NCBI RefSeq assembly: GCF_004010195.1
Contig: NC_057754.1
Span: forward strand, 9,301,215 to 9,365,214
DNA length: 64,000 bases
Direction of reading: 5' to 3'
From: Chiloscyllium plagiosum
Taxonomy: Eukaryota
In this document: piece after piece, positions 12,390 through 62,765 of the stretch
Position numbering within the stretch: the stretch's first letter is position 1
Layout: every line of letters starts with the position of its first letter
Made by a program: the position numbers and the translations under genes
The notes under the pieces: generated by a model
The model's database searches: none
What the model was told of the DNA's origin: nothing
The model's input: the letters and a program-made list of their open reading frames with translations, nothing else

Positions 12390-13290
12390 TGTTCACTTTT
12401 GTTGATAATGATTTGACATTTATCCAGACACTGAACTCCAGCATAGTTACTGGGATTATCAATAGAAGTCAACTCAAAAGGTAAGAATGAACAGCACTAA
12501 TAACAGCAGAGTACAACCCCTGCAATCACTGAAGTATTGTGTTAGGATTGAAGATGACTGAGTAAATCTCTTCCCACACATGGAGTATATGAACAGCGTG
12601 TTGTTATGTTACTGTGTCAGCAGGTCCATTTTACTTTTACAACTCTGCTTATAGAACATTAACTATTTTTTTAAAAAAGAAGTGTGGTCAAGTGTTTGGA
12701 GGGTGGGATGACTGAGTGTACAGAACAGGTGGAAGTCCTCCCCTCAATGTGAACATGTTGCTGGATACTGATATCACACAATCCCCAAGTTCAGTCCTTT
12801 AGTGGGAGTAGCTGAACAGTCTCCTGTCACTGTGAATGCATTAATTACAAATCAGCTCCATGGAGAATTTTTAAACCCATCCTGCAATCCTGATGTTTAA
12901 AAGATTTTTTCAGTGTTAACTAACCGATGAGCCAACAGGTTAGTCGAATGAATGAATCCTCCTCCCACACATGAAGCAGGCTAAACACCCGCTGATCTGT
13001 ATGTCCTTGAACGTTATGATGTTATGTACTGCTTGCAAAACAAGACTTTTCACTGTACTTAGGTACGTGACAATAAATCAAATCAATTCAAATCAAAACA
13101 AAAGTCAAATCTCTCCCCAGTGTGAACTTGGTGCTGATGTAGGTTGGACAATCGCTGAACTTCTTCCCACGGTAGGAGCAGACAAATGGGTACATACCTG
13201 CAACATGAGACAATACAGGTTTCCAAACCCCTTCCATCCAGAGTGAACTGGCTGGTATGTCCGAAGACTGGATGGAGAAAGATTTGAGTT
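12390..13290 (-). pseudogene. Heavily decayed C2H2 zinc-finger array with family-type 3' UTR
   Basis: Minus strand has TGTGGGAAGAGATTTACTCAGTCATC (CGKRFTQS); ORF scraps RLSNLHQHQVHTGER and SSLRTYQPVHSG; 12400-12530 resembles the 3' UTRs of the intact genes. Interrupted by a Rex-like tail at ~12990-13100. Confidence 0.75.
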
Positions 13291-13563
13291 GCGAGACAAT
13301 TTCGGCCCTGTGAGTTCCTCACAATTGTTGGTGGAGGTGAGGATGGAGGTGACAGGGAGAGGGAGTGCCCTTCAAAAGGAACTAAAGAGATATTACAAAG
13401 ATTTGACACACTGTGGGTTTAACACAAAACCAAATGTGTTTGACTTTTATCTAGGATATTAATCCTTATAACTAGGCTGGAATTTGTTAACATCAATACA
13501 AATGGACTCCAATGAACATAGTTCAGTCTGGACATAATTAATTGCAAATTCTAAATACTGCAG

Positions 13564-14640
13564 TTATTCATGAACCCGCTGGTGTCTCAGCAGGGCAGTT
13601 GAATGAGTAAATGCCTTTCCACACTGGGAGCAGGTGAATGGCCTCTCCCCTGTGTGAATTCGCTGGTGTACAGTGAGGTTAGATGATCGCCGGAACCCAG
13701 CTCCACAGTGAGAACATCTGAATGGCTTCTCATCAGTGTGAACACGTTGATGGCGTGTCAAGTCCCTAGAACATTGAAAGCACTTCCCACAGTCTGTGCA
13801 TTTAAAAGGTCTGTTGCCAGTGTGGACTCGCTGGTGACTCAGCAAGTTGGATGCATCAGTGAATCCTTTCCCACACTCTGGGCAGATGTACGGTCGTTCC
13901 CCAGTGTGAACTCGCTGGTGTGTCAGCAAGTTAGATAACCGAGTGAACCTCTTCTCGCACTTGGAGCAGGTGAACGGCCTCTCACCGGTGTGAATGCGCT
14001 GGTGTGTCAGCAGGTAGGATGACCGCGTGAATGCCTTCCCACAATCTGAGCAAGTGAATGGTTTCTCCCCAGTGTGAACTCGCTGGTGTATCAGCAAGGT
14101 GGATGAATGAGTGAATCCCTTCCCACACTCCAAGCAGTTGAACGGTTTCTCCTTTGTGTGAACTCGCTGGTGTATCAGTAGGTCAGATGACTGAGTGAAT
14201 CCCCTCCCACATTCAGAGCAGGTGAATGGTCGTTCCCCAGTGTGAACTCGCTGGTGTCTCAACAGGGTAGATGACTGAGTGAATCCCTTCCCACACATGG
14301 AGCATGTGAATGGTCTCTCACCAGTATGAATTCGCTGGTGTAGAGTTAGTTCTGATGGCTGAGTGTATCCCTTTCCACACTCCGAGCAGGTGAACGGTCT
14401 CTCCCCAGTGTGAAGCTGTTGATGTCTCAGCAGGGTGGACGACTGAGTGAATCCCTTCCCACACTCTGAGCAGGTAAATGGTTTCTCTCCAGTGCGAGTT
14501 TGTCTGTGAATAATGAGTTCAGATGACTCCCTGAACTGAGTCCCATAGTTAGAGGACCTGAACGGTCTCTCGTCATTGTGAACAGATTGACGAGACATAA
14601 GTTCCCCAGACTTTTGTAGGAACTCCCAAAATCTGGACAT
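13564..14640 (-). CDS. Tandem C2H2 zinc-finger protein, 11 intact fingers, eroded N-terminus (ZNF-1)
   Basis: 358-aa ORF with 11 C-x2-C-x12-H-x3-H fingers and TGE(K/R)PF linkers. The first ~50 aa are broken fingers and the start codon is uncertain. Confidence 0.85.
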
Positions 14641-15020
14641 TTAAAAGATCTGTCTTCACTGAACTCACTGGTGATCCAGCAGAGAGGATGACTGAGTGAA
14701 CTGCTTCTCACGCTTGGAGCTGGCAAATAATTTCTCTCCAGAGTGACTGTACCTGTGCGATTCCAGCTCAGATAAGTAATTGAATTCCTTCTCACAGTTC
14801 CCAGTTTTCCATCACTTCTCAAATAAATTTGTGTCTTGACATTCCAGATGACTAGCTGAACACAAAACACATGTTTAGATTCCCCCACTGTGATTGGTGT
14901 TTTTTCCTTCCATGTTCAAAATCCAATGATATTCAGATTGTGATCATTTGAGAAAGTGTCAGATTCCACGGTGATGTTTGGTTTGGGTTTCCTGACTGAA
15001 CATCCTCCACTTCCAATACC
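14641..15020 (-). other. ZNF-1 exon-2 leader with decayed N-terminal fingers; splice acceptor at 15021-15022
   Basis: Minus strand TTTGAATCACTTTCACAG|GGTATTGGAAGTGGAGGATG, then EK*WKTGNCEKEFNYLSELESHRYSHSGEK...HQ*. Confidence 0.7.
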
Positions 15021-15164
15021 CTGTGAAAGTGATTCAAAATACAGAAGATGAAGTGACAGCGTCCTCACAAAGGCAGGCTTAGAAATTGACAGAATCTGTT
15101 CGTTCACATGAGGAGAAAGAACTAGGAGCAGGAGAAGGCAATTCAGTTCCTCGAGTGGCTTGCT

Positions 15165-15460
15165 AGACCATTTGAGAGGACAGTTCAGAGTCAACCACAT
15201 TGCTGAGGCTCTGGAGTTACATGTAGGCCAGACCAGGTGAGGAAGGCAGATTTCCTTCCCTAAAGGACATCAGTGAACCAGATGGGTTTTTCCGAAAATT
15301 GACAATGGATTTGTGGTCGACTCTTAATTCCAGATTTTTTTTAAATTGAATTAAAATTCTACCATCTGCAGTCGTGGGATTCAAACCCAAGTCCTCAGAA
15401 CATTATTTTGGGTTTCAGGATTAATAGTCAAGCAATAATACAACGAGGCCATCACCTTCC
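15165..15460 (-). mobile_element. Second tRNA-SINE family (SacSINE1/Deu-like, tentative)
   Basis: Reverse complement matches 58735-58830 plus 59148-59330 (TGTCCTTTAGG..GGAAATCTGCC...TGGCCTACATGT). Confidence 0.55.
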
Positions 15461-16167
15461 CACTACGTTTAAGTAATATCCTAATGCAGCTCCCTTTGTG
15501 GATGTTGGAATGATTGCTCCTGTAGCCACAAATCTTCTCAAAAATTGCAATCTGCCTCTGAACCATGACCTCACCATTGAACATCAGGCCATAGTCAACT
15601 ATGGTCACCAACCTCATTTCATCCAGTGATCTCCCGCCTCCACTGCCTCCAAACTGATAGTCCCCCAACCCCACACAGCTCGCTTCCACCTCCTTCCTAA
15701 AATCCATAAACAGGTGTGTCTGGGCAGACCCATTGTTTCTGCCTGCTCCTGCCCCACAGAATTCTTCCTACCTTGAGTTGGTCTTTTCTCCTCGGTCCAG
15801 TCCCTGCCCACCTACTCCTCTGACACTTTACACCAGTTTCCAGTTTGTGGGCTCTAGCCATCTCCTCTTTATCATTAACATGCAATCCCTTTACATGTCC
15901 ATCCCCCAGCAGAATGGTCTTAGGACTCTCCGCTTCTTCCTGGAACAAAGGCCTGAACCGTCCCCACTCACCACCAGCATCCTCCACCTAGCCAAGTTTG
16001 TCCACACCACGAACAATTTTTCCTTTAACTCCTCTCATTTTCGTCAGGTCAGAGTGATAGCCATGGGTACTTGCATGGGCTCCAGTTATACCTGTCTCTT
16101 TGCGGGGTACGTAGAATATTCCTTGTTCCATCCTATTCCTACCCCACCCACAGCTCTTTCACCAGTA

Positions 16168-16330
16168 CAGAGGAAACTCGATTATCCGAAGGCCACGGGT
16201 GGAGAGTATTTCGTTCGGTTAATCGGTTAATGCTGAATAACATAGTTTAGCCACGCATCAGGACCTTGCGATCTTGTTCAGATAATCCAAAATTCAGATC
16301 ATTGGAAGCTGGATAATTGAGGTTCCTCTG
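16168..16330. mobile_element. Tc1/mariner (Tigger-like) MITE
   Basis: Terminal inverted repeats CAGAGGAAACTCGATTATCC / GGATAATTGAGGTTCCTCTG, flanked by TA at 16166-16167 and 16331-16332. Confidence 0.85.
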
Positions 16331-16947
16331 TATGTCAATGATATCATCGGTGTTGCTTCCCTCTCTCGTCCGGAATTGGAAAAGTCTAAGAGTTCTGCTT
16401 CCAATTTCCACCCTGCTCTCACCTTCACCTGGTCCATCTCAGACTCCTTCCTTCCTCAACATCTCTCAATTTCTGGAGAAAAGCTGGCCACCAATATCCA
16501 TTATAAATCCACTGACTCGCACCATTACTGTGACTAAATATCTTCACACTCTACTTCCTGTAAAGACACGACTGCATTCTTCTAATTCCTCTAATCTCTT
16601 CTGTTGGTGCCAACTTCGACAAGGGAGCTTCTGAAATGACCACCATCTTCCTCAACTGAGGATTCCCCAGCACTGTTGTTGGCAGCGCCCTCAGTAGAGT
16701 CCAATTCATCTCCTGCACTTCCACCCTCACCCCCTCTCTTCTCTCCTGCAACAGCGATTGTTCTTCTTATCCTCATGTACCATCTCACCATCACACACAT
16801 ATAGAGGAACATTAGCTGCCATTTCTGCCACCTCCAGCAAGATGCTACCACCAGACGCATATTCCTCTCCCCTCTCGTCAGGCTTCTGCAGGGACCGTTC
16901 CATCTGGAACATTCTGGTTCATTCCTCCTTTTTTCCCAACAACCCCC

Positions 16948-17490: not shown

Positions 17491-18569
17491 CCCCCACAGC
17501 CCCATGGCACTTTCCCCTGCAACTGCAGAAGATGTAACGCCTCTATGTTTACCTCCTCCCTCCTCAGTATCCAAGGGCCCAAATACACCTGACAGGTGAA
17601 ACAGTGCTTTACCTACACTTTACACAATCTAATCTACTGCATTCACTGCTCACAATGTGGTCTCTTTTACATTGGGTAAATGAAGTGTAGACTGGGTGAC
17701 CGCTTCACAAAAGACCTATGCTCTGCCCACAAAAAAAGACCCTGAGCTTCCAGTTGCCTGCCACTTCAACACACCACCCTGTTCGCTGGCCAACATTTCT
17801 GTCTCAAGATTGCTTCATTGCTCCAGCGAAGTTCAGGGCAAGCTGGATGAACAGCACATCATTTTCCACCTGGGAGTCTGCAGCCTTCTGGACTCAATAT
17901 AGAGTTCAATAAATTTAGGACTAGAGCTCTCCCATGTCCTGACCCTGACCCCTACACAGCAGGCCTTGTTATCACACTGTCTGCTATTACATACAGCCTG
18001 TCCATTAGTCACCAACACGATCTCCATTAACAGCTGTTCACCCTCCTAATCAGACTGTTATCCACTCCAATTGTTCTTCTCTCTCTTTGGGCTCTACCTC
18101 CACCTTTTGCTTACTCCTTACCTCCCTCCCCATCCAATCTTCTGCATATATACCGCCATTTTCCGAGCTAACATCAGTTCTGAGGAAGAGTCACTGGACC
18201 CCGAAACCCCTGATTTCTCTCTCTTGGTGCTGCTGGACTTGCTTCATTAGAGATAAATAAAACTGCAGATGCTGGAATCCAAAGTAAAAGAGCAAGAGGC
18301 TGGAAGCACACAGCAAGCCAGGCAACATCAGGAGATGGAGAAGTTGGCGTTTCGGGTATAACACTTCTTTTCCAACAGCTTCTGTTTTTGTGCCTTGGAG
18401 ACATGAGACAGGGCACAAGGAAGTGGGATCTGGAATGCAGGATTGGCCTTTTGTTTCTCATTGGGATGCTGGAACTCAAAAGGTAATATTACAGCTTGAT
18501 GGACAGGTAGTCTCCATCTTAAACCACTGTCAGGAACTTGCTCCCTGCCCTTTGGCAAACTGACCCAAT

Positions 18570-18950
18570 AAAATGGTGGCAACACCTACATGCTCGCCCC
18601 CAACCAAAGTGGCGGCCGCGCATGTGCACTGTCGCTCGCTGCCCCCGATAAACATGGCGGCCACTCGCCGGGGCCTAATGGCAAGGAGCCGCGACCGCGA
18701 TTTGTGCAAACGAGGGGCCGATACATTCATTTTCCGCGTTCGCCGCTGGCAGAATATCGTTACGAACCCTCTCGGTTCACTCGCTGAATCCATCGTTTCC
18801 TCTATCCCCCACCGCTCATTCTTACCCCGTGTGGATCTGTGAAGAAAACCGCCGCATCGGCGCCATTATTCGCTGCAGCGTATTCCGCAGAGGCTTCGGA
18901 ACTGCGACTGCGCACTGATCTCTGCATTGTGGAGAGGGGAATGCTGGGTC
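18570..18950 (-). promoter_or_regulatory. CpG-island promoter and non-coding exon 1 of ZNF-1
   Basis: High CpG density; YY1-type sites at 18570-18580 and 18651-18662; minus-strand donor GG|GTAAGA at 18825; homologous to 47700-47980. Confidence 0.75.
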
Positions 18951-22651: not shown

Positions 22652-22931
22652 GTAACCATCAACTCCACTTTCCTTTCACCCTCGAATCGCTTACCAGATT
22701 TAAAAATTGTCTCTCTCAGCCTTGAATAAACTTAGTGACCGAGCCTCAATACCCCCTTGTAATTGAAAATTCCACGGCAGCAATGAAAAGGTTTCTGGAT
22801 CTTCCAGAATTTGGGTAAGCGTCTGAGGGTCAGACCTTCCTCGGATTTGCAACTCGAAGCGCCCTCCGCCCCGACCTGTCCTCACTCCGAGATGGCGGTC
22901 AGTTGCCCGGGTAACCGGCGTGGGCGGAATA

Positions 22932-23261
22932 CCCACCCCCTCGTTCACTCCGATTGGTTGGAGGGACCATTCTTTCCGGATCAGTGCTCCAGCCCCGCCT
23001 CCTCATTCACGCCGATTAGTTGGAGGACTATCCGCTCCATCTTAGTCCTCCAGCCCCGCCTCCTCGTTCACTCCCGATTGGTTGGAGGACCATGCCCGCC
23101 AGCTCGGGCCTCCAGCCCCGCCTCCTCATTCACTCCTATTGGTTGAGGTTGGAGGACCATCCCCTCCAGCTGATTCCTCCTGCCCTACATCCCCCTCATT
23201 CACTCTGATTGGTTGGAGGAAGCCCCGCCCCCTCATTCATACCGCTTGTATGGAGGACTAG
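22932..23261 (+). repeat. Array of six ~45-bp repeats with 16-bp variable spacers (period ~61-67 bp)
   Basis: Consensus CTCCAGCCCCGCCTCCTCATTCACTCCGATTGGTTGGAGGACCAT at 22932 (partial), 22987, 23048, 23110, 23177 and 23221 (degenerate). Confidence 0.9.
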
Positions 23262-23319
23262 TCGGCTCATGCTTGGTCTTCCAGTTCTCAGTCATTAATC
23301 GTCCGGGCTCCATTGTTGA

Positions 23320-25139: not shown

Positions 25140-25320
25140 TCTATGTTGTGTGAACTTCTCGATGGAGTCATAGTCATAGTTTTTAAATAATGGAGTGAAT
25201 TGATCCTTACAACAGAGGCGGTGAATAGATCATCCACTGTGACTTGCTGATGCAAAAGCAGGTTGAATGACTGAGTGAATATCTTCCATCATATAGGGCA
25301 GATGAACTGACTCTTCTTGG
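25140..25320 (-). pseudogene. Small relic of about two C2H2 fingers
   Basis: Minus strand TTCATCTGCCCTATATGATGGAAGATATTCACTCAGTCATTCAACCTGCTTTTGCATCAGCAAGTCACAGTGG reads approximately FICPI*WKIFTQSFNLLLHQQV. Confidence 0.65.
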
Positions 25321-26187: not shown

Positions 26188-29100
26188 CAAGGTTGGGACA
26201 ATGAAAATAGAGAGAAAGTGTTCTTGCTGGTGGAAGTGTTGAGAACCAGAGGAGACCAGTTTAAAATAATTGACAAAAGAAATGATGCTGATATGAGAAG
26301 AAAAAATTGCTTCACTGAGATCTGCACAGCACTGCCTGAGAATATGGTGGAGGCAGATTCACTTGAGGCTTCTAAAAGAGAATTGAACAATTATCTGAAG
26401 AGAACAGAAGTAGAGGGCCAAATTAGAAAAATGGGCCTAGGTGTATTGCTATTGCAGAGAGCTAACATAGACACAGTAAGTCAAATGCCTCCCTCTGTGC
26501 TGTAACCAGACCCAGGAAAAGAAATTATGGGTATTGGTTCTTCACATGCTTCTGGGCCTCAATAACCCCAATAACTCGTGTCGGTGTGGGTTTCCTCTGG
26601 TTTCCAGAATTGGAAACCATAGTACACTGGAGATACAATGGTTTCAACCCATTTCATGTGGACTTAGCAAAACACCTTGCCTACTGTCTTCTATTATTCA
26701 TAAAGCCCAATGAAAACTCAGATTTAATGTTGATTTACTTCACAACTTTGTCAGACATGTATGCACAATATGGTTGTTCATATTTTGCAACCAGCTTTGC
26801 TTCATTGAGCCTGGCCCTCTCTCTATGTATATCCAGCCTGCAATATTCAAAAGGCTTGGCCAACAGAAAATATTGCACTGGAAACAAAAATGCTGGAAAT
26901 CACAGCAGGTCAGGCAGCATCCATGGAGAGAGACCAAGCTAATGTTTCAAGTCAAGAAGACTCTACATCGGACCACTTTGCCTTGAGCAATAAATATATT
27001 CTTATTTTATGTTAAACTGACCACATTCACAAATGCCTAGCATTGTGTAGATAGTCAACAGCGAAATATGACAGGTATTGGAAATCTGAAATAGAAACAG
27101 AAAATTCTAGAAATTCCCACCAGGCCAAGAATCAATGTTTCAGATCTACAATGTGCACAGCTTAAGATTAAAGAGTCACTGACCTTTGCATAGATACTGT
27201 TCGATGTATTGAGCAATTTAACACTTCCTATTTCTATTGAAGCAAAAATAACCCATTTTGTCAGCCCTCTAAAAAGCAATCAGATTTATTGATAGCTTAC
27301 CATTTCCCTGCAGTAAGAAACCCAGCATCACTTGCGTGAAATCTGCTTTGGCACAACATTAAGCATGAATGTCAAAATAAGTTAAGGTATGAAGCAATTT
27401 GCTGAGCAACAAAAAAGTCTCAAAGCAATACTTTTTTTGAATGAAATTCAATAAATATATCCATTAAGAAATGGCCAAAGTGTAGAGTTAGCTTTAAAAA
27501 AAACCCTTAATATGTAATGGTAGGGGGAGACAAACTGGGCTCCAAACCCCCAGAGAATGGGATGGGGCTGGAAAGCTAAGGAGTTGGATCTAACTAATGC
27601 TGACTTCTCATTTGGCTCCACTGGTGCACACTCCAAGCTGTGTGGTGTTCATTAAAAAAGTGGACATTAGAAATGAGATGTCTTTCAGCCTGTGTTTTCC
27701 TTCTCTCCGAGTTTGATGTGTGATTAGGTTTTTGTGGAAGGAGGAGGATGAAAGGCAGAGCTTGCTTGTTGTGTCCACATGTGTGTACAGCCCAATGTCT
27801 CTGTGTGTAAGTATGTGTCTTGTGGGCATTCAGTTCAGTACCAGTACAGATTGTATATATACACAGACACACTCTGTCTCTATCTCTCTTTCTTTCATGC
27901 CCTCTCACATACATTCTCGTTCACTCTCTTTTGGGCATTCCCTTGCGCACAGTCATATTTACTTGCATGCATGCATACACACTCTCATTCACGCATTTAC
28001 TCTTCTGCCTCTCCATTACCAGACAGGAGATTGATTTGGGAAGGACTTAGCCAGGTCCACATAAATTAAGTGAAAACTTATTTTTCATTTTAGTTTTATT
28101 TCAGTTTGAAGTATTATTCATATGGTTAATTCAAATTAAAATGAAATGAATTCGAACTGGAAATGTAGAGGCGAAAAGCATTCGATGGGATATGCTTTTA
28201 GTCAATATTGAGAAATATTAAGGTTGGAGCAGGAGAGAAATAATAAAACAATGGTTCAATGATAATGGTCCATTAGTATAGCCTGTCATATTTGAACAAA
28301 GCTAGAGCAATGCTAAAATCATTGCAATAAATCAGAGGGAATTGTATAGGTAGGAAATAAAATTAAAAACTCTTGAAACTTATCTGCAATTTCAGTGCTC
28401 TGCATTGCGGTGAAATAATTATCAACACCCAAGAACGTGCTCTGAAAACAACAAGTAGTGCCTTCAGTGGGCCAGCGCATGCATGAAAGGTCAGGATCAT
28501 GGCCAGGGGTGGACTACGTCATTTGGTATGCACCCTGACTGTGAAAACAATGGTCACATGGACTTGAGCTCTCACTCCAGCATAACAGGACCTCAAGCAC
28601 TAGAATTTTGTCACTGAGCAGGGTGCTGCCACACTCTTGTTTGAAAGCATATTGAGGTATGAGGCAACCACTGCAGACATGATCTTTGGTGATCAGAACC
28701 ATATGTATGCCCTCTCCTGATTGGAAACACTCAATAATACAACATCATGGGTCTGTAGTTCACTAATGCAGGAGAGGCTGTTTTGTTCCTTATTGATATT
28801 ATGAACTTATGCCCCAGTGCAAGTTTGGGTGATTGAGCTGAGAATACAGAATCAGTAAGTGGTGAAGAATCAAAGATTCGCCAGGGAATGGATTAATAAC
28901 TCGGGGTGCTGCACAAATCTCAAGTGTAACCCCAATTAGATTGATTAAATTGTAAGCAAATATACCGCTCACTTCTTTGTTTTAGTTTCATTAAATACCG
29001 ATTGTCAATGTGGCGCTTCTCAGAAGTTTTCTCACCGCTGTCTGCTCATGTTAACATGATCTCCTATCAGACGAATGTGTTTCTATATTTCACAAAGTTT

Positions 29101-29199
29101 ATAAACATCTCAGCTATCCGTCATGTCCAGTTGGTCTACCCAGAATGCCCCACGTTGCAGAGAGCGATTGTCAATTATCGGGAGGGTGCAGATTAATGG

Positions 29200-29630
29200 C
29201 GTTTTGTTTACCCAGACCGCCCTGCGCTGCAGAAAGCCCCCTATCAGTGACTATGGTAGCCCAGTGCGCAAAGTAGAAGCAGTCTGTGCTCTGAGCATGC
29301 TCAGTGTCAGTCATGGAGACAGCATGAGGAGGAGCGGACGCTCGGGTGTCACGACGAGATTGAGGAAGGGTAAGGGTGGAAACCGCGGCACTGAGGCCTG
29401 GTAACATTATCAATTCCTGGAGGAGGCCCCCTGAGGCTCCGAATAGGAATCGCTAGGCGTGTTTGCTCAGCGGGCGGGCTCTCTGACCGCCATCTTGTGA
29501 GTGGGTGTCAGGGATCCGGGGCACGATCTCCCGAAGTGGTCCCGGGTTACCTAGGCAACTGTTAGCCCGCCATCTTGGTGAAGGAATGACCCTGGCAACC
29601 GGCGGCCATTTTGTTGAGGATGTCAGGTCT
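29200..29630 (+). promoter_or_regulatory. CpG-island promoter, exon 1 and intron 1 of ZNF-2
   Basis: CTGAGCATGCTCAG palindrome; donors G|GTAAGG (29370) or G|GTAACA (29401); YY1-type sites 29487, 29567, 29603; X-box GTTACCTAGGCAAC 29546-29559; acceptor TATTTACAG| at 29701. Confidence 0.75.
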
Positions 29631-30097
29631 TTGGGGAAATAATGAATGGGAATCGTTAGATATGTCTTTTCTGATTTTTTTTTTCAATCCTGTATTTACA
29701 GGCTGGAAAATGTAATCGAACACCACATCAAGATGTCACCGTCACCCCATTCAGCAGGACCTGAAAACGATTGGATTTTGAATATGAAAGGAGAAATGTC
29801 TGATGCTTTGCATGTGGGGAAATATTTCGTACCTGAGGATGATTTGGCAAAACACTGAAACTATCACACACCCCAGAATGAGAATGTTCTGGTGCAAAGG
29901 CTGTGAAAAGAGCTTTAACCAGTTAACGTGGTCTGACTGAATGTTCCAGGGCACTGACTATGGAGAGAGCTTTAATGAATCACACAGCCTGAAAAAAAAT
30001 CACAACATTCACAGTGTGGAGAAAATATCAGTGTTGTGTCCTTAAAAAAAGCTTAAACTGATCGTTCAATCTGGGGAGACGCAAGAACACTCAGAGC

Positions 30098-31399
30098 ATG
30101 GAGAAACGATGGAAATGTGAGGACTGCGGTAAAGGATTTGATTATCCATCTCTGCTGGAAATTCATCGACGCAGTCACACAGGTGAGAGACCATTCATCT
30201 GTTCTGTGTGTGGGAAGGGATTTACTAAATCATCCAGCCTCATGTACCACCAGCGAATTCACACTCAGGAGAAGCCATTCAGCTGCACTTACTGTGGAAA
30301 AAAATTCAGGCAGTCATGCAACCTCACTGCACACCAGCGAATTCATACTGAGGAAAGGCCATTCAGCTGCACTCACTGTGGAAAAAAGTTCAGGCAGTCT
30401 TCAAATCTCACTGCACACCAACTAATTCACACGGGCGAGAAGTCATTCATTTGCTCTGTGTGTGGGAAGGGATTCGCTCAGTCATCAGGACTTTGGTCCC
30501 ACCAGCGAATTCACACTGGGAATAAATTATTCAGTGACACATCCTGTACAAGGAAGTTGAAGTCTTCAACTGGCCTCACGTCACAAGATGATCCTAGAGA
30601 GAAGCCATTTATCTGCTCTGTGTGTGGAAAGGGATTTAGTCAGTCAGGTAGCCTCCTGCTACATCAGCGAATTCACACTGAGGAGAGGCCATTCAGCTGC
30701 ACTCAGTGTGGGAAGAGGTTTAAGCATTCAAACACTCTCACTGCACACCAGCGAATTCATACTGGGGAGAAGCCATTCACTTGCTCCAAATGTGGAAAGG
30801 GATTTGCTCAGTCATCCAACCTGGTAGTGCACCAACGAATTCACGCTGAAGAAAAGCCATTAAACTGCACTCACTGTGGAAAGAGTTTCAGGTCTTCATC
30901 CAATCTCATTGCACATCAGCGCACTCATACAGGGGAGAGAAGGTTCATCTGTTCTGTGTGTGGGAAGGGATTCACTCAGTCAGCCAGCCTCATGTTACAC
31001 CAGCGAATTCACAGTGGGGAAATGCCGTTCAGCTGCACTCAGTGTGGAAAGCAGTTCAGACATTCATCCACCCTCAGTGCACACCAACGAGTTCATACTG
31101 GGGAGAAGCCATTCATTTGCTCCATATGTGGGAAAGGATTCACACATTCATCTGGCCTTTGGTCTCACAAGCGAGTTCACACTGGGGAGAGGCAATTCAG
31201 CTGCATTGCGTGTGGAAAAAGATTCAGGTCTGCATCTGATTTGAATGTACACAAGCGAGTTCACACTGGGGAGAGGCCATTCACCTGTTCTACTTGTGGG
31301 AAGGGATTTACTCTGTCATCCAATCTGCTGACACATCAGAGAATTCATAAGCGTCAACAGAGTTTGAATTCAGCTGTTAATCACGTTCAAGATTTATAG
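30098..31399 (+). CDS. Tandem C2H2 zinc-finger protein, 14 fingers plus 1 degenerate (ZNF-2)
   Basis: 433-aa ORF starting [30 protein letters not shown] in good context (AGCATGG); no effector domain visible. Confidence 0.92.
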   Translation: MEKRWKCEDCGKGFDYPSLLEIHRRSHTGERPFICSVCGKGFTKSSSLMYHQRIHTQEKPFSCTYCGKKFRQSCNLTAHQRIHTEERPFSCTHCGKKFRQSSNLTAHQLIHTGEKSFICSVCGKGFAQSSGLWSHQRIHTGNKLFSDTSCTRKLKSSTGLTSQDDPREKPFICSVCGKGFSQSGSLLLHQRIHTEERPFSCTQCGKRFKHSNTLTAHQRIHTGEKPFTCSKCGKGFAQSSNLVVHQRIHAEEKPLNCTHCGKSFRSSSNLIAHQRTHTGERRFICSVCGKGFTQSASLMLHQRIHSGEMPFSCTQCGKQFRHSSTLSAHQRVHTGEKPFICSICGKGFTHSSGLWSHKRVHTGERQFSCIACGKRFRSASDLNVHKRVHTGERPFTCSTCGKGFTLSSNLLTHQRIHKRQQSLNSAVNHVQDL

Positions 31400-47579: not shown

Positions 47580-48260
47580 TCGATTCTCCGCCTCCTGTTC
47601 CTACTCGATAACTAAAAAAACAATTAAATAACGGCAAAAAAAACAGAACCGCCAATGGCGAAGGTAGTACCCAGCAGCCTCCGCGGTGGTGAATACGCTG
47701 TATTCACACAATGGAAAAGCGGTGCGCAGTCGCAGCACCTAAGCATGCGCAGAATGGGCATTAGCGGTAGTTCTTTGTTTCTCGGATCCGCAAACGGTAA
47801 GAATACGGCGGGGTGGAAGGAGCGATGAATCCAGTGGGCAGTCGCGCATGATTCGTAAATGTGTTTTGTAAGTCTCCATCTAACCCCGATAAGGAATTTC
47901 TTTCCCCCTTTCCTGGTGTGCATCGAAATGGGCCGCAGCTACCAGCGTAGGTCCCCGGTTGCCGGCCGCCATCTTTATTAGGGGCATTGAGGGCTGGGCG
48001 CACCCTCACCGCCATCTTTGTAGGGGGAGGGGCGATGTTCTCAATGACTGGGGAGCATCAGCTCAGAACAGTAGCTCAGACTGGCTTAGTTGCCTGTCAA
48101 GCTGACGAAGTGTCTGATTGGTGAGGCAGCGCTGCGGTACACAAGGAAGGGAAAGGACGCAAATCCTGCACCCCAGTTCGCTCTAGCCATGGTAGGTCCT
48201 GCTCCATGTATCCAAAGATCCGCAACTCACATGAACAGCGACGGCGTGTAAACCTCTTCC
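47580..48260 (+). promoter_or_regulatory. CpG-island promoter and non-coding exon 1 of ZNF-3
   Basis: CCAAT at 47652; NRF1-like GCATGCGCA at ~47743; donor CG|GTAAGA at 47797; YY1-type CCGCCATCTT at 47966 and 48009. Confidence 0.78.
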
Positions 48261-48264
48261 GCAG

Positions 48265-48456
48265 GGTATTTGCAGAGGATTTGAAGACAGGAAACTCAAA
48301 CCGCCCAGCACATCGAAATTAAGTGGCACTGTATTCATCACAACCTGGGTATTATCCACCTTTGAGTGTAAACATCTACTTCCTAGTCGTTAGCGCTCAC
48401 ACCATCAAACCTCTTCCTCACGCCCCTCTGTGGAGTTCTGTCCTATTTATGATCAG
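48265..48456 (+). other. Candidate extra 5' UTR exon, a duplicate of the family leader
   Basis: CTCTTCCGCAG|GGTATTTGCAGAGGATTTGAAGACAGGAAACTCAAACC; possible donor CAG|GTAATG at 48457. Confidence 0.55.
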
Positions 48457-48826: not shown

Positions 48827-49497
48827 TTATTGAAAACTAACGTTAGGGTGAAATATTTTGCCTGATTGTGAATAGTGTAATTAAGTCTCATGCAGATACC
48901 AGGGAGAGTCAGTGGTCAGGGAGTGGAGTTCATAGTGGGGACTGAAAACAATGGCTTAATTCTTTCCAATATTTCTGTTCCTACTGTACTGGATATCACA
49001 CAGATCTGTACAATGTGTAACATTGTGATAAATTTAGTGATGATAGAGTTAACATAAACCTTCTGCCTTCGTCCTTCTAGGAGGTTGAGAGTTTGGCTTA
49101 TAAAAGCCCTCTTATTCATCTTCTGCTTTTCCCAATTATCTCTGACTCTTTCTGTCTCCACCCATTGATGCAAAAGTCTTCTGTGAGTCCAGACCAAGTG
49201 ACAGGGTTTCTTGCTGGAAGGACATTCGTGAATCAATGATTTTCTTATGATAGTTGTCCTAACCTTTATGTATTACATTTTCTAGTTGTGGTTTCAGAAA
49301 CTACCATATTTAATCAGCTCAATTTAACAATTTGTTTTGTGGGCTTCTCTCTTATTATCTTTTTCCTGTTTTCAATCAATTTCACAGGATATCAGAAGAG
49401 GATAATTTGCAATTAGGAAATTCAAACTGACCATCACAATGGGATTTGATAAGAGTCTTCTATTTTCTGGTAACCTGAAAATCAATGCATTTTGAAC

Positions 49498-50535
49498 ATG
49501 GAAGGAAAAAGCATCATTTGCACTAGGGAGAAACTGTACATGTGTTCTGTATGTGGACGAGACTTCAGCCGATCATCTGGTTTATCCAGACACAAGTGCA
49601 GTCAGACTGGGGAGAACCCGTGGAAATGTGAGGACTGTGGGAAGGGATTCAATTACCCATCTGACCTGGAGACACATCAGCGCAGTCACACTGGGGAGAA
49701 ACCGTTCACCTGTCCTCAGTGTGGGAAGGCCTTCACACAGTCATCCACCCTCCTCAAACATCAGCGTGATCACAATGGCTACAGGCCATTCACCTGTCCT
49801 GAGTGTGGGAAGGGATTCACTCAGTTTTCCAACTTCTTGGGTCATCAGAGAACTCACACTGGGGAGAGGCCATTCACCTGCGCAGAGTGTGGGAAGGGAT
49901 TCACTCAGTCATCCCACCTGATGGCACATCAGCGAGTTCACACTGGGAACAGACCTTTCACCTGCTCCGAATGTGGGAAGGGAAGCTCTCAGTTATCAGA
50001 TCTGCTGAAACACCAGCGGGTTCACACTGGTGAGAGACCATTCACTTGCTCTGAGTGTGGAAAGGGATTCACTCAGTCATCGCACTTGCTGAAACACCAG
50101 CGAGTTCACAGTGATGAAAGACCATTTGAATGCCTGCATTGTGGGAAGCGTTTTAAAAGTTCTGTGGAGCTGGTGTCTCATCAACGGGTTCACAGTGACG
50201 AGAGACCTTTTAAATGCCGAGACTGTGGGAAGTGCTTTAAAACTTCTGGGGAACTGGTAACCCATCAACGCGTTCACACTGACGAGAGACCGTTCAGATG
50301 CTCTCACTGTGGGACTGGGTTCAGGAAATCATCTCAACTCACTGTACACCAGCGAATTCACACTGGGGAGAGGCCGCTCAGCTGCTCCAACTGTGGGAAG
50401 AGATTTAATCATTTGTCCAATCTACTAAAACACAAGCGTATTCACACTGGGGAAAAGCCATTCACTTGTTCTGAATGTGGGAAAAGATTCACTCAGTCTT
50501 CCCATCTATTGAGGCATAAGCGAGTTCACAAGTAA
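49498..50535 (+). CDS. Tandem C2H2 zinc-finger protein, 11 fingers plus an atypical N-terminal finger (ZNF-3)
   Basis: The ORF track starts at TTG 49492; the first ATG (AACATGG) is at 49498. Acceptor TTCACAG| at 49387; AATAAA at 50642-50647. Confidence 0.92.
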
Positions 50536-55647: not shown

Positions 55648-55990
55648 TGGTGGCACGGTGGCTCAGTGGTTAGCACTGCTGTCTCACAGTGCCAGGGTCC
55701 CAGGTTCAGTTTCACCCTGGGTGACTGTGTGGAGTTTGCACATTTTCCCATTGCCCATGATGGGTTTCCTCTGGGTGCTTCAGTTTCCTCCCACAGTCCA
55801 CAGTGCCGGGTGGGTGGATTGGCTAAGCTAAATTGCCCATAGTGCCCAGGAATGTGCAGGCTAGGTGGATTAGCCATAGGAAATGCAGGTTTACAGAGAT
55901 GGGGTGGGTCTGGGTGGGATACTCTTTGAAGGGGTGGTGTGGATGCAATGGGTCAAGTGGCCTATTTCCACACTGCAGGGATCCTATAAG
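55648..55990 (+). mobile_element. HE1-like SINE (older)
   Basis: GGTGGCACGGTGGCTCAGTGGTTAGCACTGCTG head. Confidence 0.82.
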
Positions 55991-57302: not shown

Positions 57303-58478
57303 TCACTTGTGACCTTGCTGGTGTCTCAGCAGGTGGGATGACTGAGTAAATGCCTTTCCACACTTGCAGGTGAATGGCCTCTCTCCAGTGTGAATTCGCT
57401 GGTGTGTCTGCAGGTGGGATAACTGAATAAATCCCTTCTCACACTCAGAGCAAGTGAATGGTCTCTCCCCAGTATGAACCCGCTGGTGCGTCAACAGGTA
57501 AGATAACCGAGTGAATACCTTCCCACAGTCAGAGCAGGTGAACGGTCTTGCCCCAGTGTGAACGCGCTTGTGCACACTGAGGTAGGAAGAAGACCTGAAC
57601 CTCTTTCCACAGGAAGTGCAGCTGAACGGCCTCTCCTCAGTGTGAATTTGTTGGTGTTTTAGCACATCAGAGGTTTGTGAAAATCCTTTCCCACATACAG
57701 GGCAAGTGAATGGTCTCTCCCCAGTGTGAACATGCTGGTGTGTCAGTAGTTGGGATGATCGAGTGAATCCCTTTCCACACTTGGAGCAAGTGAATGGTCT
57801 CTCTCGAGTGTGAACCCACTGATGTTTTTGCAGACTGATTGACCGAGTAAATCTCTTGCCACATGAGGAGCAGGTAAATTGTCTCTTTCCAGTATGAACT
57901 CGCTGGTGTCTCAGCAATTGGGAAAACTGAGTGAATCTCTTGTCACATTCTGAGCAGGTGAATGGTTTCTCCTTTGTGTGGACTCTCTGATGTGTCAGTA
58001 GGATGGAGGACTGCGTGAATCCTTTACCACACTCAGAGCAGGTGAACGGTCTCTCACCAGTATGAGTGCGTTGATGGATCAGCAAATTGTGGGACTGAGT
58101 GAACGCTTTCCCACACTCAGAGCAGGTAAATGATTTCTCTCCAGTGTGAACATGCTGGTGTCTCAGCAAATTTGATGAACGAGCAAACTGTTTCCCACAA
58201 ACAGAACAGGTGAATGGCCTCTCCCCAGTGTGAACACGTTGGTGTGCAGTGAGGTTGGCTGACTGCCTGAAACGCTTTCCACAGGAACTGCAGCTGAATG
58301 GCTTCTCCTCAGTGTGAATAAGCATGTGTTTCTGAAGACTAGATAATACTGTGAAACCTTTCCCACATGTAGAACAGCTAAATAGCCTCTCTCCAGTGTG
58401 ACTGCGCCGATGAATTTCCAGCTGGGATGGGTAATTGAATCCCTTCCCACAGTCGCCACATTTCCACGGTTTTTCCAT
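57303..58478 (-). CDS. Tandem C2H2 zinc-finger protein, 14 fingers, the last with C-x-C spacing (ZNF-4)
   Basis: 391-aa ORF starting [27 protein letters not shown]; acceptor CTCTTTCCCCACTCCATAG-like at 58587-58588. Confidence 0.92.
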   Translation of the reverse strand: MEKPWKCGDCGKGFNYPSQLEIHRRSHTGERLFSCSTCGKGFTVLSSLQKHMLIHTEEKPFSCSSCGKRFRQSANLTAHQRVHTGERPFTCSVCGKQFARSSNLLRHQHVHTGEKSFTCSECGKAFTQSHNLLIHQRTHTGERPFTCSECGKGFTQSSILLTHQRVHTKEKPFTCSECDKRFTQFSQLLRHQRVHTGKRQFTCSSCGKRFTRSISLQKHQWVHTRERPFTCSKCGKGFTRSSQLLTHQHVHTGERPFTCPVCGKGFSQTSDVLKHQQIHTEERPFSCTSCGKRFRSSSYLSVHKRVHTGARPFTCSDCGKVFTRLSYLLTHQRVHTGERPFTCSECEKGFIQLSHLQTHQRIHTGERPFTCKCGKAFTQSSHLLRHQQGHK

Positions 58479-58832
58479 GGGGTCCTCGGGTCTCTCCCTA
58501 GTGGATGATTGATGTAAGCCTCATCCAAACACAGAACTCATGTAGACATTAGGTTTCCTTCCATATGTAAATCCTCTCCCAAGACTCTATGGAGTGGGGA
58601 AGAGAAAGGAGATTACAAAGTCATCTGTCGGTGCAGAATGGATATTCCAAACAGACAATCGCAGTTCCTCTGCATCATTGGTTTCCTCTTGTACTCCCAA
58701 ATCTGGAAGAATTGCCTTCAAAGGAAGCAAAGGCGTTGTTGTAATGTCACTGAGCAAGCTAATGTTCTGGAAACATGGGTTCAATTCCCACTAGAGCAGG
58801 CAGTGAAATTTTGATTCAATACCAAAATCCGT

Positions 58833-59147
58833 GGGCGGCACGGTGGCACAGTGGTTAGCACTGCTGCCTCACAGCACCAGAGACCCAGGTTCAAGACCCA
58901 CCTCAGGCAACTGACTGTGTGGAGTTTGCACGTTCTCCCCGTGTCTGCGTGGGTTTCCTCCGGGTGCTCCGGTTTCCTCCCACAGTCCAAAGATGTGCAA
59001 GTCAGGTGAATTGGCCATGCTAAATTGCCCGTAGTGTTAGGTAAGGGGTAACTGTAGGGGTATGGGTGGGTTGCGCTTCGGCGGGTCGGTGTGGACTTGT
59101 TGGGCCGAAGGGCCTGTTTCCACACTGTAATGTAATCTAATCTAATC
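58833..59147 (+). mobile_element. HE1-like SINE, young subfamily, nested in a second SINE (58735-59330) in ZNF-4 intron 1
   Basis: Nearly identical to 39815-40130. Confidence 0.92.
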
Positions 59148-59469
59148 AAGCTGGCCTAACCTCTGTCAACTGTTGTAAAATCACATCGGATGCACTAATG
59201 TCCTTTAGGAAGGGAAATCTGCCATCTTTTCCCAATCTGGCCTACATGTGACTCCAGACCCACAAAGTGGGTGGTTTCACCACCTTATGGACACTGAGGG
59301 ATGGACAACTAAACACAGGCCTGACCAGAGATAACCACATCCAATTAACTCAGGAAAAACTCTCTCAAACAAATAAACTGTCGGACAATTCTTCTCAATT
59401 TAACAAACTTGAGCAACTACAGACAAATCAGATTTGTTTCTGGAACCTAATTATTCCTCTCCTTCCAGC

Positions 59470-59770
59470 TCCTGTCAAGATGGTGGCCGCGCCTGCGCCC
59501 TCTGGATTAACGCCTCAGACAACTTCTGCACATGCGCTAGCGCCAGGGTGACTGACGGCGGAGTCAGACCAATAGGAAAAGGGGACTGGGCGGGACGGGT
59601 GTCAATAGGGTCCTCCAACCAATCAGAGCGCAGGCTGCGAATGGAGCATGCGTATTGTGCGAGTGCTGGAGACGGATCGGAGCGCTCGGTGTGGGCTGTG
59701 GAAACTCCCGGAGCCCCTTTTTTATGCTGACCCCTCGGAAACTCGTTATTGCAGGTCAGCGATGGATTGA
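59470..59770. promoter_or_regulatory. CpG-island promoter of ZNF-4, probably bidirectional
   Basis: YY1-like CAAGATGGTGGCC 59476-59488; CCAAT at 59569 and 59619; GC box GGGCGGG 59588; NRF1-like GCACATGCGC and GAGCATGCG. Confidence 0.72.
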
Positions 59771-59937
59771 CACACAGCAAACCTCAACTGAGAGGAATGT
59801 TTGTTTCACCTGGTCTCTCTGTCAACTCCTTTTAAAGGAAATTCAGTGGCAGGCGTTCACACGGAACAGGTCCTGTGAGCCTGCTTTGCTAATCAACATA
59901 ACAAGGGGTGATCTTCTATTTCAGTGATGTGGAGAAG

Positions 59938-60105
59938 GTTAAAAAAATCACACAACACCCAGGTTACTGTCCAACAGGGTTGTTTAGAAGAACTAAATTA
60001 AATTCTGTGTCTTATGATCCTGCTCCACAGCTCCCTGATGGAGGAGCTGCATTCCGAAAGCTAGTGCTTCCAAATTAAACCTGTTGGACTATATTGTGTG
60101 ATTTT
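59938..60105. mobile_element. Family A fold-back element with hammerhead-like core
   Basis: CTGATGG-AGGAGCTGCATTCC-GAAA-GC-TA at 60035-60063; inverted arms. Confidence 0.7.
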
Positions 60106-60309
60106 CTCTTTTCAATATCATAGAGTCATACTGTTTGGAAGCAGACCCTTTGGTCCAACTCGTCCATGCTGACCAAGTTTCCCAAACGAAATTAGTCCCA
60201 CTTGCCTGTGTTCGGCCCGTATCTCTCTAAACCTTTCCTATTCGTGTAATTGTCTGAATATCTTATAAATTTGTAACTGTATCTGTCACTACCGTTTCTC
60301 CTGCTTTTT

Positions 60310-61392
60310 CCCCATAGGAGGAGGTGTGGCTCAGGTACAGGCAGCTAGGATCAAGGGAATCCCTGGAGCTACCTGGGGAATACAGGAGTTTATTGAAGAA
60401 TGAAATCAGGAGGGCAAAAAAAGGGGCACGAGATAGCCTGAGCTGAGAAGATTAGGGTGAATCCAAATAGGTTCTTCAAGGAAAAATAATAACGAGAAAG
60501 AGAATAGGCCCCCTCAATGACAGATGTATGTGGAACCACAGGCAATATTCTAAATGAATATGTCTTCTCTGTGTTTATCAGGGAGAAAGACATGAAGACT
60601 TGGGGAAGTTACAGGTGATATTTTGAGGACAGTCCATTTCACAGTAGTGGTGGTGTTTGATGTATTGGAATGTATAAAGATGGATAAATCTCGTGGTCCT
60701 GACCAAATATATCTAAGAACACTGCAAGAGAAGAAATTGCAGGGTCCCTGACTGATATTTTTGCATAATCGTTAGCCACAGGTGAGATCCTGGAAGGTTG
60801 GAGGGCAGCAAATGTTGTGCCCTTATTCAAGAAGGGCTGCAAAGAAACACCTAGGAACTACAGACCAGGAAGCCTAACATCTGTGATAGGTACATTACTT
60901 GAGAAGATTCTGAGAGATAAGATATCCAAGCATTGGGTAAGATGGGGTTTTGTGCATGGGGGATCATGCCTCACACATTTGTTTGAGTTCTTTGATGAAG
61001 TGACCCAGAAGTTTGACGTGGGCAGGGCGGTAAACATAGTCTATATGGAGAAAGTGAGGACTGCAGATGCTGGAGATGAGAATCGAGAGTGTAGTGCTGG
61101 AAAAGCATGGCTTCCTGATGAAGGGCTTATGCCTGAAACATCGATTCTCCTGCTCCTCGGATGCTGCCTGACTATATGGACTTCAGTAAGGCTTTTGATG
61201 AGGTTCTTACAGATAGGCTGCTCTGGAAGGTTACATTGCTTGGAATCCAGGGGAAGCTGGCAAATTGGATACACAATTAGCTTGATGGTTGGAAGCAGTG
61301 GGTAACAGTGGAAGGATGCTTGTTGGACTAGGGGCCTGTGAATAGTGGAGTGCCTCAGGAGTCAGTGATGCTCCATTACTATTTGTTATCTA
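60310..61392 (+). mobile_element. CR1 ORF2 fragment with a family B element (61050-61171) inserted
   Basis: PLFKKGCKETPRNYRPGSLTSV...SCLTHLFEFF; the insertion splits VYMDFSK and is flanked by CTATATGGA (61041-61049, 61172-61180). Confidence 0.85.
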
Positions 61393-61399
61393 CAATTGC

Positions 61400-62595
61400 A
61401 GTAAGGTACCCCTACTTCTGAACTCAAATCCTCTTGCAATAAACCAAAGCCAATAAACCATTTGCCCTCATAACTGCTTGCTGCACCTGCCTATCTACTT
61501 TCATTGACTGGTGCATAAGGGCACGCAGGTCCCTATATAGATTACATTTCCTGATATTTCACCATTAAATAGTACTCTTACTTTCTGTTTTCACACTAAA
61601 ATATATAAATTTACATTTAACCACTTTATACTGCATTTGTCAGGTTATTTCCCACTCACTCAACTTGTCTAAATCACCTTGAAGCCTCTTTACATTCTCC
61701 TCACAATGCACAATTCTGCCTAGTTCTGTATCGTCAGCAGACTTAGAAATGTTGACTTTGCTTTTCTCATCCGGGTCAATTATAAACATTATAAATAGCT
61801 GGGGCCCAAGCACGGATTCTTGTTGTATACCATTAGGCACTTGGAAAAAGACTCACTTATGCCCATGCTGTGTTTCCTGTCTTAACCAACTCTCAACCAT
61901 TGCCATTATATTACTGCTATCCCATATGTACTAATTTGTCCAGTAAGAGATCTTATCAAAAGCCTTCTATCCACTTGTTCTTCCTTATATATTCTTCTCA
62001 TTAAATCCTCAAAAATCTCCATTAGATTTCTTAAACATGATTAGCCTTTCATAAACCCATGCTGGCTTTGCACAATCTTGTTAATGCTTTCCAACTGTTT
62101 TGTTGTCACACTTGTTTATAATAGACTCTTAACATTTTCCCCACTGGTATTACGTTAATTGGTCTGTAATTCTCCATGTTCTTTCTCTCTCCCTTTTTAA
62201 ATAGTGGGGTTACATTTTCTGCCTTCCAATTTGTGGGAAATGCTCCAGAGTCTATAGAATTTTGGGAGTTAACTGCCCAAACATCCATTATTTCCAGTGC
62301 CACTTCCCTTAGTACTCTGGGATGTATATATAATGCCCTGGTAATTTGACAGCCCCATTAATGTCCCGAGCACTATTTTCTTTGTAATGCTGATTTCCTT
62401 CAACTCTTCTCCCTCACTAGACCCTTGGTTCCCTAATATTTATGGGAGGTTATTTGTGCCCTCTTTTGTGAACACAGAATCAAAGTATGCGTTCAATTCT
62501 TCAGCCATTTCTTTGTGGTTCATTATAATTTCATCTGCTTCTGGTTGTAAAGGACTTGCATTTGTCTTTACTAACATTTTTCTCTTCACATATTT
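61400..62595 (-). mobile_element. CR1 ORF2 fragment
   Basis: PTNWKAENVTPLFKKG..NYRPI; SVLGPQLF...SKSADDTELG. Confidence 0.85.
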
Positions 62596-62603
62596 ATATT
62601 TAG

Positions 62604-62765
62604 AGAGAGTAACCTCAAACCACACATCACGTTAAGATCTGATAGAGTCACTCCATTCACCAGGACCTGAATATCATGGCCTTTGACCAAGGAAGTAAAA
62701 AGGTTTATCTGTTGTGCTATGGGAAAAGATTTGAGATCAGTGTAACTAGAAATGCCCCAGAAAAT
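62604..62765 (+). other. Orphan copy of the ZNF family leader exon
   Basis: AACCTCAAACCACACATCACGTTAAGATCTGATAGAGTCACTCCATTCACCAGGACCTGAATATC aligns with 29715-29770, 49415-49480 and the ZNF-1 leader. Confidence 0.7.

What the first reader, a model, noticed from the sequence alone, without database searches (positions are those of the whole stretch)
12390..62765. Cluster of effector-less (KRAB-less) tandem zinc-finger genes built on one modular cassette: a candidate shark counterpart of the KRAB-ZFP system
Seen: four genes with 11-14 fingers in a single coding exon. The start ATG leads almost directly into fingers, and the inferred exon 1 is short with no recognisable domain. The genes share promoter motifs, a leader, a first finger and a 3' UTR, while base-contacting residues vary. 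Relics show turnover, all within dense transposon DNA. Established: tetrapod KRAB-ZFPs and cyprinid FiNZ-ZNFs form similar clusters linked to transposon repression, but both carry an N-terminal accessory domain. Inference: this is an independent chondrichthyan expansion that works without a classical effector domain, or with a finger acting as one.
Basis: partly seen in the sequence, partly recalled or inferred. Interest (0 to 1): 0.8.

Follow-up and report, generated by a model that had tools for sequence, protein, structure and literature searches.

The report
Fingers-only zinc-finger gene cluster of sharks
Four related genes here encode only strings of zinc fingers, with no silencing domain in their reading frames, and belong to a shark-and-ray family that papers have so far only counted; they likely read DNA with fast-changing fingers and may help control jumping genes, but that role is untested.

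Summary
Real. Four tandem C2H2 ORFs (11-14 fingers; Pfam finds only finger families) and several relics share a spliced-leader sequence. In all four, in-frame stops lie between the inferred acceptor and the ATG (7, 8, 4, 1), so no effector exon can join in frame there. No RNA evidence was obtained. A leader profile finds 35 genuine relatives; all 26 named ones are sharks, skates or rays (12 genera). Contact codons -1/+3/+6 show dN/dS about 0.8-1.2, against 0.03 for structural codons; positive selection is not shown. Corrections: gene A has lost the shared first finger yet keeps 11 intact ones; promoter and 3' UTR sharing is pairwise; position +2 is mostly Ser. In many relatives the leader is an in-frame acidic peptide, and two ray genes carry a PxVxL motif upstream, so 'effector-less' holds for these four genes, not necessarily for the family. 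The expansion is already counted (Wells 2023 supplement: 475-3586 ORFs per genome) and catshark clusters are noted (Mayeur 2024); my searches found no description of the architecture. Transposon repression is a plausible, untested analogy. One scan note on another genome reports similar shared stops.

The parts
13564..14640 (-). Gene A ORF, 358 aa from the first ATG: decayed N-terminal relic sequence, then 11 intact C2H2 fingers (about 14478-13570)
14480..15020 (-). Gene A leader (inferred acceptor at 15021) and dead finger 0, first finger and following fingers; the family-type ATG at about 14912 now opens only a short ORF
18500..18950 (-). Gene A CpG-island promoter and inferred exon 1 (candidate donor at 18825), homologous to gene C's
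12390..13275 (-). Dead fingers and a second 3'-UTR-like copy downstream of gene A
22850..23300 (.). Orphan CpG-island promoter with a 62-nt x 4.6 CCAAT/GC-box repeat; B-like on the - strand, D-like on the + strand
25234..25306 (-). Isolated dead finger
   Evidence: E 3e-10
29150..29650 (+). Gene B CpG-island promoter with YY1-like and RFX-like motifs (motif names recalled)
29702..30097 (+). Gene B leader plus dead upstream fingers (inferred 5' UTR; 12 upstream ATGs, 8 in-frame stops)
30098..31399 (+). Gene B ORF, 433 aa, 14 intact fingers
47650..48150 (+). Gene C CpG-island promoter and inferred exon 1 (candidate donor at 47797)
48266..48350 (+). Extra leader copy with its own acceptor inside gene C's inferred intron
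49389..49497 (+). Gene C leader (109 nt, 4 in-frame stops, no AG between the last stop and the ATG)
49498..50535 (+). Gene C ORF, 345 aa, degenerate finger 0 plus 11 intact fingers
57303..58478 (-). Gene D ORF, 391 aa, 13 intact fingers plus a variant last finger
58479..58586 (-). Gene D shortened leader and dead finger 0 (1 in-frame stop)
59400..59750 (-). Gene D CpG-island promoter
62560..62765 (+). Relic E: B-type leader and dead finger start, no array

Best explanation
These are four members of a shark-and-ray family of tandem C2H2 genes whose reading frames hold only fingers; they likely arose by DNA-level duplication of one cassette, are predicted to bind DNA through fast-changing helix positions -1, +3 and +6, and most likely act on repeats or transposons without a KRAB-type domain. 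Shown: a fingers-only frame, blocked upstream by stops; strong constraint on the finger scaffold with near-neutral change at contact codons; relics; family range. Inferred: the cassette is CpG promoter, short exon 1, intron, then one large exon (leader, degenerate finger 0, conserved first finger, variable array). Inferred: the 5' end erodes, so dead fingers become 5' UTR and the start codon moves downstream (A, B, D). Inferred mechanism: occupancy of target DNA, plus a cofactor contact through the conserved atypical first finger where it is kept. I put about 0.8 on fingers-only proteins, about 0.45 on transposons as the main targets, and about 0.25 on a finger serving as the effector.
For: In-frame stops between the inferred acceptor and ATG: A 7, B 8, C 4, D 1; in C no AG follows the last stop. 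Pfam shows only finger-type families for the four ORFs and for 10 shark relatives. Database models that start directly at the two family ATGs exist in Pristiophorus and Cetorhinus (P0100, P0123). Upstream parts of relatives are unrelated to each other except for read-through of the same non-coding DNA and one ray pair. On 24 disjoint finger pairs: dN/dS 0.03-0.04 at structural codons, 0.31-0.42 at other codons, 0.84 [0.56-1.29] to 1.16 [0.78-1.78] at -1/+3/+6. 46 distinct four-residue signatures among 49 fingers. Relic copies keep acceptor-side sequence, which fits DNA duplication rather than retrocopying. 26 of 26 named leader hits are elasmobranchs. First finger in relatives: Pro at +1 in 17 of 20 and Glu at +5 in 15 of 20, against Pro in 2 of 100 other fingers. 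Gene A has four frameshifting gaps and a stop in its first 433 nt (read by eye) and none in its 11 remaining fingers. Published: ZNF and retroelement counts correlate across animals independently of accessory domains (PMC10547256); KRAB families are among those missing from cartilaginous fishes (PMC8455134).
Against: No transcript evidence, so exons, start sites and expression are inferred. Weak AG sites remain between the last stop and the ATG in B (4) and D (5), one with 67% pyrimidines. The leader is in frame with downstream fingers in 16 of 35 relatives, including all three named ray proteins (ascertained by an in-frame profile). Gene A's candidate exon-1 ATG would splice in frame into the leader before a stop (read), hinting at a formerly coding N-terminus. 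The dN/dS intervals at contact codons include 1, and +5 is about as free. Gene A lacks the first finger. Nothing here ties any finger to a transposon. A and B leaders have 6 and 12 upstream ATGs, which could mean poor translation.
Confidence: 0.55

Rival explanations
1. The family does have an N-terminal accessory module (the acidic leader peptide and, in rays, an upstream PxVxL-type HP1-binding motif). The four genes here are derived forms that lost it and may act as competitors of, or partners to, full-length members.
For: Leader in frame with fingers in 16 of 35 relatives. Skate P0153 and devil-ray P0172 share a 29-aa upstream segment (69% identity, E 4e-5) that holds PxVxL. FiNZ is likewise a short acidic peptide (PMC10547256). 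Gene A's exon-1 ATG is in phase with the leader frame.
Against: In 13 of 35 hits the ORF ends before any intact finger, and in 6 the leader is read partly in another frame. PxVxL lies upstream in only 2 of 36 proteins examined and has no counterpart in the window. The Atlas gave no hit above 0.78 for that segment. All relatives are automated gene models.
Confidence: 0.2
2. The proteins are fingers-only but serve other ends than transposon control: ordinary lineage-specific transcription factors, RNA binders, or binders of satellites and other repeats that limit ectopic recombination.
For: No positive-selection signal. Wells et al. themselves propose genome stabilisation and note that dipteran ZAD-ZNFs do not track transposons. 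The promoters are CpG islands with housekeeping-type motifs (motif meaning recalled).
Against: Rapid turnover, 475-3586 ORFs per genome in retroelement-rich cartilaginous fishes, and freed contact codons match the transposon-linked families.
Confidence: 0.17
3. Largely dispensable copies: a duplication-prone region throws off ZNF paralogues that decay, and the four ORFs are recent or barely functional.
For: Many relics in 64 kb. Relatives from distant sharks end at the same stops in dead upstream fingers (P0141, P0146, P0148). Many upstream ATGs.
Against: The paralogues are old (about 65-72% DNA identity; pS 0.34-0.40 between best-matched fingers), yet structural codons show dN/dS 0.03-0.04 and the ORFs stay open over 345-433 codons.
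Confidence: 0.08

Closest known systems
Cyprinid FiNZ-ZNFs (Wells et al. 2023, PMC10547256)
   Same: Clustered, lineage-specific, in a lineage said to lack KRAB-ZFPs; all fingers in one large exon; variable base-contacting residues.
   Different: FZNFs have a conserved 28-aa acidic FiNZ domain on an upstream coding exon, with positive selection and transposon de-repression shown. Here no upstream exon can join in frame at the shared acceptor, selection above 1 is not shown, and function is untested.
Sarcopterygian KRAB-ZFPs with TRIM28
   Same: Kruppel-type arrays with TGEKP-type linkers, tandem clusters, birth-and-death turnover, a last exon that opens with a spacer and degenerate fingers (last point recalled).
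   Different: No KRAB domain; KRAB-ZFPs are dated to sarcopterygians (PMC10380595).
Shark ZNF ORFs counted by Wells et al. 2023 (Supplemental Data) and the catshark chr 13 and 17 ZNF clusters (Mayeur et al. 2024, PMC11979771)
   Same: Very likely the same expansion: hundreds to thousands of ORFs with five or more fingers, in clusters of recent duplicates with high nucleotide diversity.
   Different: Those papers give counts or a single sentence. Neither passage describes the cassette, the missing effector or the 5' erosion. That my family makes up most of those counts is inferred.
Uncharacterised tandem ZNF expansions of octopus, sea urchin and rice weevil (Wells et al. 2023)
   Same: Large, poorly characterised C2H2 repertoires outside the KRAB system, predicted in aggregate to match transposon sequence.
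   Different: Unrelated origin; they do not share the leader or first finger, since the leader profile found only elasmobranchs among named hits.

Membership tests
KRAB-ZFP | N-terminal KRAB domain | tested here: not met
   No KRAB among the Pfam families shown for the four ORFs or 10 relatives; in-frame stops upstream of each ATG
KRAB-ZFP | Tandem Kruppel-type C2H2 array in one exon | tested here: met
KRAB-ZFP | Repression through TRIM28 | not testable with these tools
   needs biochemistry; no genome held
FiNZ-ZNF | 28-aa acidic FiNZ domain on an upstream coding exon | tested here: not met
   No in-frame upstream exon is possible at the shared acceptor; no cyprinid among 26 named leader hits. 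No FiNZ profile was searched directly
SCAN-, BTB- or SET-ZNF | Accessory domain in frame with the fingers | tested here: not met
Lineage-specific tandem ZNF family evolving by birth and death | Clustered paralogues plus relics | tested here: met
   four ORFs and several relics in 64 kb
Lineage-specific tandem ZNF family evolving by birth and death | Restricted to one lineage and expanded | tested here: met
   26 of 26 named leader hits are elasmobranchs; published counts 475-3586; the family's own copy number per genome was not counted
Transposon-targeting ZNF system | Positive selection at contact residues | tested here: inconclusive
   dN/dS 0.84-1.16 with intervals spanning 1, on 24 finger pairs
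Transposon-targeting ZNF system | Binds and silences transposons | not testable with these tools
   needs ChIP, SELEX or knockdown
Effector-less transcript | Spliced mRNA lacks an upstream coding exon | tested here: inconclusive
   DNA anatomy supports it; no read evidence was obtained

The most novel reading that the evidence does not exclude
Sharks and rays run a third, independently built vertebrate transposon-silencing zinc-finger system that needs neither KRAB nor FiNZ. The conserved atypical first finger (Tyr-Pro-Ser-x-Leu-Glu helix, kept from skates to sharks) is itself the co-repressor handle, having replaced an ancestral acidic or HP1-binding N-terminus that rays still carry, while 5' fingers are recycled into uORF-rich leaders that tune dosage.
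Probability: 0.15. Interest if true: 0.8.

Novelty: new member of a known kind. Interest (0 to 1): 0.42.

Why it matters
Cartilaginous fishes have retroelement-rich genomes and hundreds to thousands of tandem ZNF ORFs but no KRAB-ZFP family, and Wells et al. list how non-KRAB ZNFs silence as an open question. The leader and first finger give markers to census the family, and they define three testable effector candidates: the first finger, the leader peptide and the ray PxVxL segment. A positive result would show how vertebrates handled transposons outside the KRAB/TRIM28 lineage. As it stands this is a well-supported description of an under-described family, not a shown system.

Tried and rejected
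Whole genome not held, so no copy count, synteny or repeat baseline. Run search: no RNA holder listed; no reads were laid, so there is no evidence either way on splicing or expression. Full-length protein search returned generic ZNFs, only 3 of 120 from sharks; not informative. Exact look-up of the four ORFs: not in the collection (the second gene A variant was one codon short of its Met). Nearest-neighbour pN/pS (1.27 at -1/+3/+6) rejected as biased, because pairs were picked on non-contact columns; replaced by disjoint pairs on all columns. A tree-based per-site test could not be run. The erosion p-value (0.001) assumed six lesions; by eye there are five (about 0.003 by hand) and the boundary was chosen after the fact, so it is only suggestive. 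Seven of 42 leader hits (P0151, P0154, P0159, P0167, P0168, P0169, P0173) were dropped as unrelated repetitive proteins. Atlas: generic ZNF clusters for P0172, nothing above 0.78 for the ray segment. Pfam found no family in 10 flanking ORFs; LINE-like remnants show only as tblastn matches, and repeat class names are recalled. Rfam: no hits. Retrocopy origin rejected because acceptor-side sequence travels with the relics. Stop-codon read-through of the shared leader stops was considered and not supported: frames also shift, and one relative has Trp there (P0147). No structure or complex prediction was run, as no specific partner is claimed.
Full report
Observation. Six-frame scans find four long C2H2 ORFs: A (-, 14640-13564), B (+, 30098-31399), C (+, 49498-50535) and D (-, 58478-57303). 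They hold 11, 14, 11 and 13 canonical fingers, plus a degenerate finger 0 in C and a variant last finger in D. Pfam shows only finger-type families among the best 25 listed per protein. A nucleotide finger profile finds dead fingers 5' of A and B, 3' of A and at 25.2 kb, well above a reversed-sequence control. A leader of about 110 nt behind a pyrimidine-rich AG recurs in A, B, C, in C's intron and in relic E; 9 of 10 pairs beat 200 shuffles. Sharing of promoters (3 of 15 pairs) and 3' UTRs (4 of 10 pairs) is pairwise, not universal. Gene A has lost the shared first finger. About 30% of the flanking DNA is repeated within the window, with no genome baseline.

Is there an effector exon? Between the inferred acceptor and the start ATG there are 7 (A), 8 (B), 4 (C) and 1 (D) in-frame stops. 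C has no AG between its last stop and the ATG. B and D have 4 and 5 AGs in mostly poor contexts. A KRAB- or FiNZ-like exon therefore cannot join in frame at the shared acceptor. This is DNA anatomy; I obtained no read evidence.

Family range. The N-terminal 66 aa of C found 16 proteins among 17 candidates, 10 of them shark models in six genera; the other six look like generic ZNFs. A profile of the leader, read as peptide, found 42 representatives among 1.84 billion. Seven unrelated repetitive proteins were dropped. Of the remaining 35, 26 are named and all are sharks, skates or rays in 12 genera; 3 have no name and 6 were not looked up. No chimaera, bony fish or tetrapod appeared, though the search is thin. 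Sorted by hand: the leader runs in frame into fingers in 16, the ORF ends before any intact finger in 13, and the leader is partly read in another frame in 6. The profile favours in-frame cases. Three models end at the same stop in a dead upstream finger, two of them from Pristiophorus and Heterodontus, so dead 5' fingers are an old inherited trait. Upstream segments are unrelated to one another apart from translated non-coding DNA, some of which matches gene A's promoter region, and one skate-devil ray pair sharing 29 aa with a PxVxL motif. PxVxL as an HP1-binding motif is established (listing and abstract of PMC12526061); its function here is untested and the window has no counterpart.

Selection. 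Of 49 fingers, 46 have distinct -1/+2/+3/+6 signatures; +2 is Ser in 38. On 24 disjoint pairs, dN/dS is 0.03-0.04 at zinc ligands and core, 0.31-0.42 elsewhere, and 0.84 [0.56-1.29] or 1.16 [0.78-1.78] at -1/+3/+6, depending on the transition weight. The scaffold is maintained and the reading residues are free, as in KRAB-ZFPs and FZNFs, but positive selection is not shown and +5 is about as free. The first finger differs: among 20 copies in 24 relatives, Pro at +1 in 17, Glu at +5 in 15 and Tyr at -1 in 13, against Pro in 2 of 100 other fingers. That makes it a candidate non-reading, protein-contact finger. Gene A, however, carries four frameshifting gaps and a stop across its first 433 nt, including this finger, while its remaining 11 fingers are intact. 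If A is functional, the first finger is optional.

How it most likely works. A duplicating cassette gives fingers-only proteins of 345-433 aa (shown as ORFs; translation inferred). New DNA specificities arise by finger duplication and change at -1/+3/+6 (variation shown, binding inferred). With no obligatory N-terminal domain the 5' end can erode, and dead fingers become uORF-rich leader: A and B have 6 and 12 upstream ATGs. The most likely targets are repeats or transposons, by analogy with the animal-wide correlation that is independent of accessory domains (PMC10547256 Discussion). Repression would come from occupancy and, where kept, a cofactor contact through the first finger (inference). 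Rivals: a family-level accessory peptide that these four genes lost (0.2), non-transposon roles (0.17), near-neutral decay (0.08).

What is in print. Wells et al. 2023 (seen: passages, Results parts 1-2 of 3, Discussion, supplement rows; supplement files 3-5 not searched) never mention sharks in the main text. Their table lists ORFs with five or more fingers: Callorhinchus 475, Chiloscyllium 703 and 1106, Rhincodon 1165, Amblyraja 1223, Carcharodon 1851, Scyliorhinus 1179 and 3586. Their code output lists shark chromosomes among ZNF-rich ones. Mayeur et al. 2024 (one passage) note catshark clusters of recently duplicated zinc-finger genes on chromosomes 13 and 17, in regions of high diversity. 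The whale shark paper (passages) reports KRAB families among those lacking in cartilaginous fishes. Carotti 2023 and 2024 (passages) date KRAB-ZFPs to sarcopterygians and propose TRIM33 with KRAB-like or FiNZ domains in ray-finned fish. A DUF3669 preprint (passages) finds that domain absent from most sharks. Ishibashi 2024 (abstract and outline) shows tandem fingers stall ribosomes, which may bear on dosage. Nine full-text searches returned no listing that describes this family's architecture; subscription journals and bioRxiv supplements are not covered.

Verdict. It fails membership of KRAB-ZFP and FiNZ-ZNF but is built and evolves like them. It is a new, so far only counted, member of a known kind: the lineage-specific tandem ZNF family. 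The fingers-only claim is well supported for these four genes and open for the family; the transposon role is untested. Interest 0.42.

Noticed in passing
window 22850-23300: Orphan CpG-island promoter with a 62-nt unit repeated 4.6 times (CCAAT plus GC box); similar to B's promoter on the minus strand and D's on the plus strand, with no adjacent array. It may be an upstream promoter of gene A or the remnant of a lost gene.
   Followed up: partly
P0153 (Rhinoraja) residues 19-47 and P0172 (Mobula) residues 14-41: Two ray family members share an upstream segment with a PxVxL motif ahead of the in-frame leader; a candidate direct HP1-binding effector, with no counterpart in the window.
   Followed up: partly
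window 18866-18826 joined to 15020-14934 (-): Gene A's candidate exon-1 ATG would splice in frame into the leader's peptide frame and stop about 28 codons later; in gene C the matching ATG is out of phase. Possibly a trace of a formerly coding N-terminus.
   Followed up: partly
window 13800-13654 (-) and 50131-50361 (+): A and C share an internal block of atypical fingers with acidic linkers; similar fingers occur in Scyliorhinus, Heterodontus and Pristiophorus models. A second conserved module besides the first finger.
   Followed up: partly
P0029 (Pristiophorus): A gene model fuses a histone H2A domain to a family member, probably an annotation artefact of neighbouring histone and ZNF clusters; catshark chromosome 13 carries both.
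   Followed up: no
window 26575-26661 (+): ARAGORN calls a tRNA-Trp; Rfam finds nothing at its threshold, so likely spurious or repeat-derived.
   Followed up: no
window 8718-9498: A 138-nt inverted repeat at 98% identity lies on either side of a run of N; possibly an assembly artefact.
   Followed up: no
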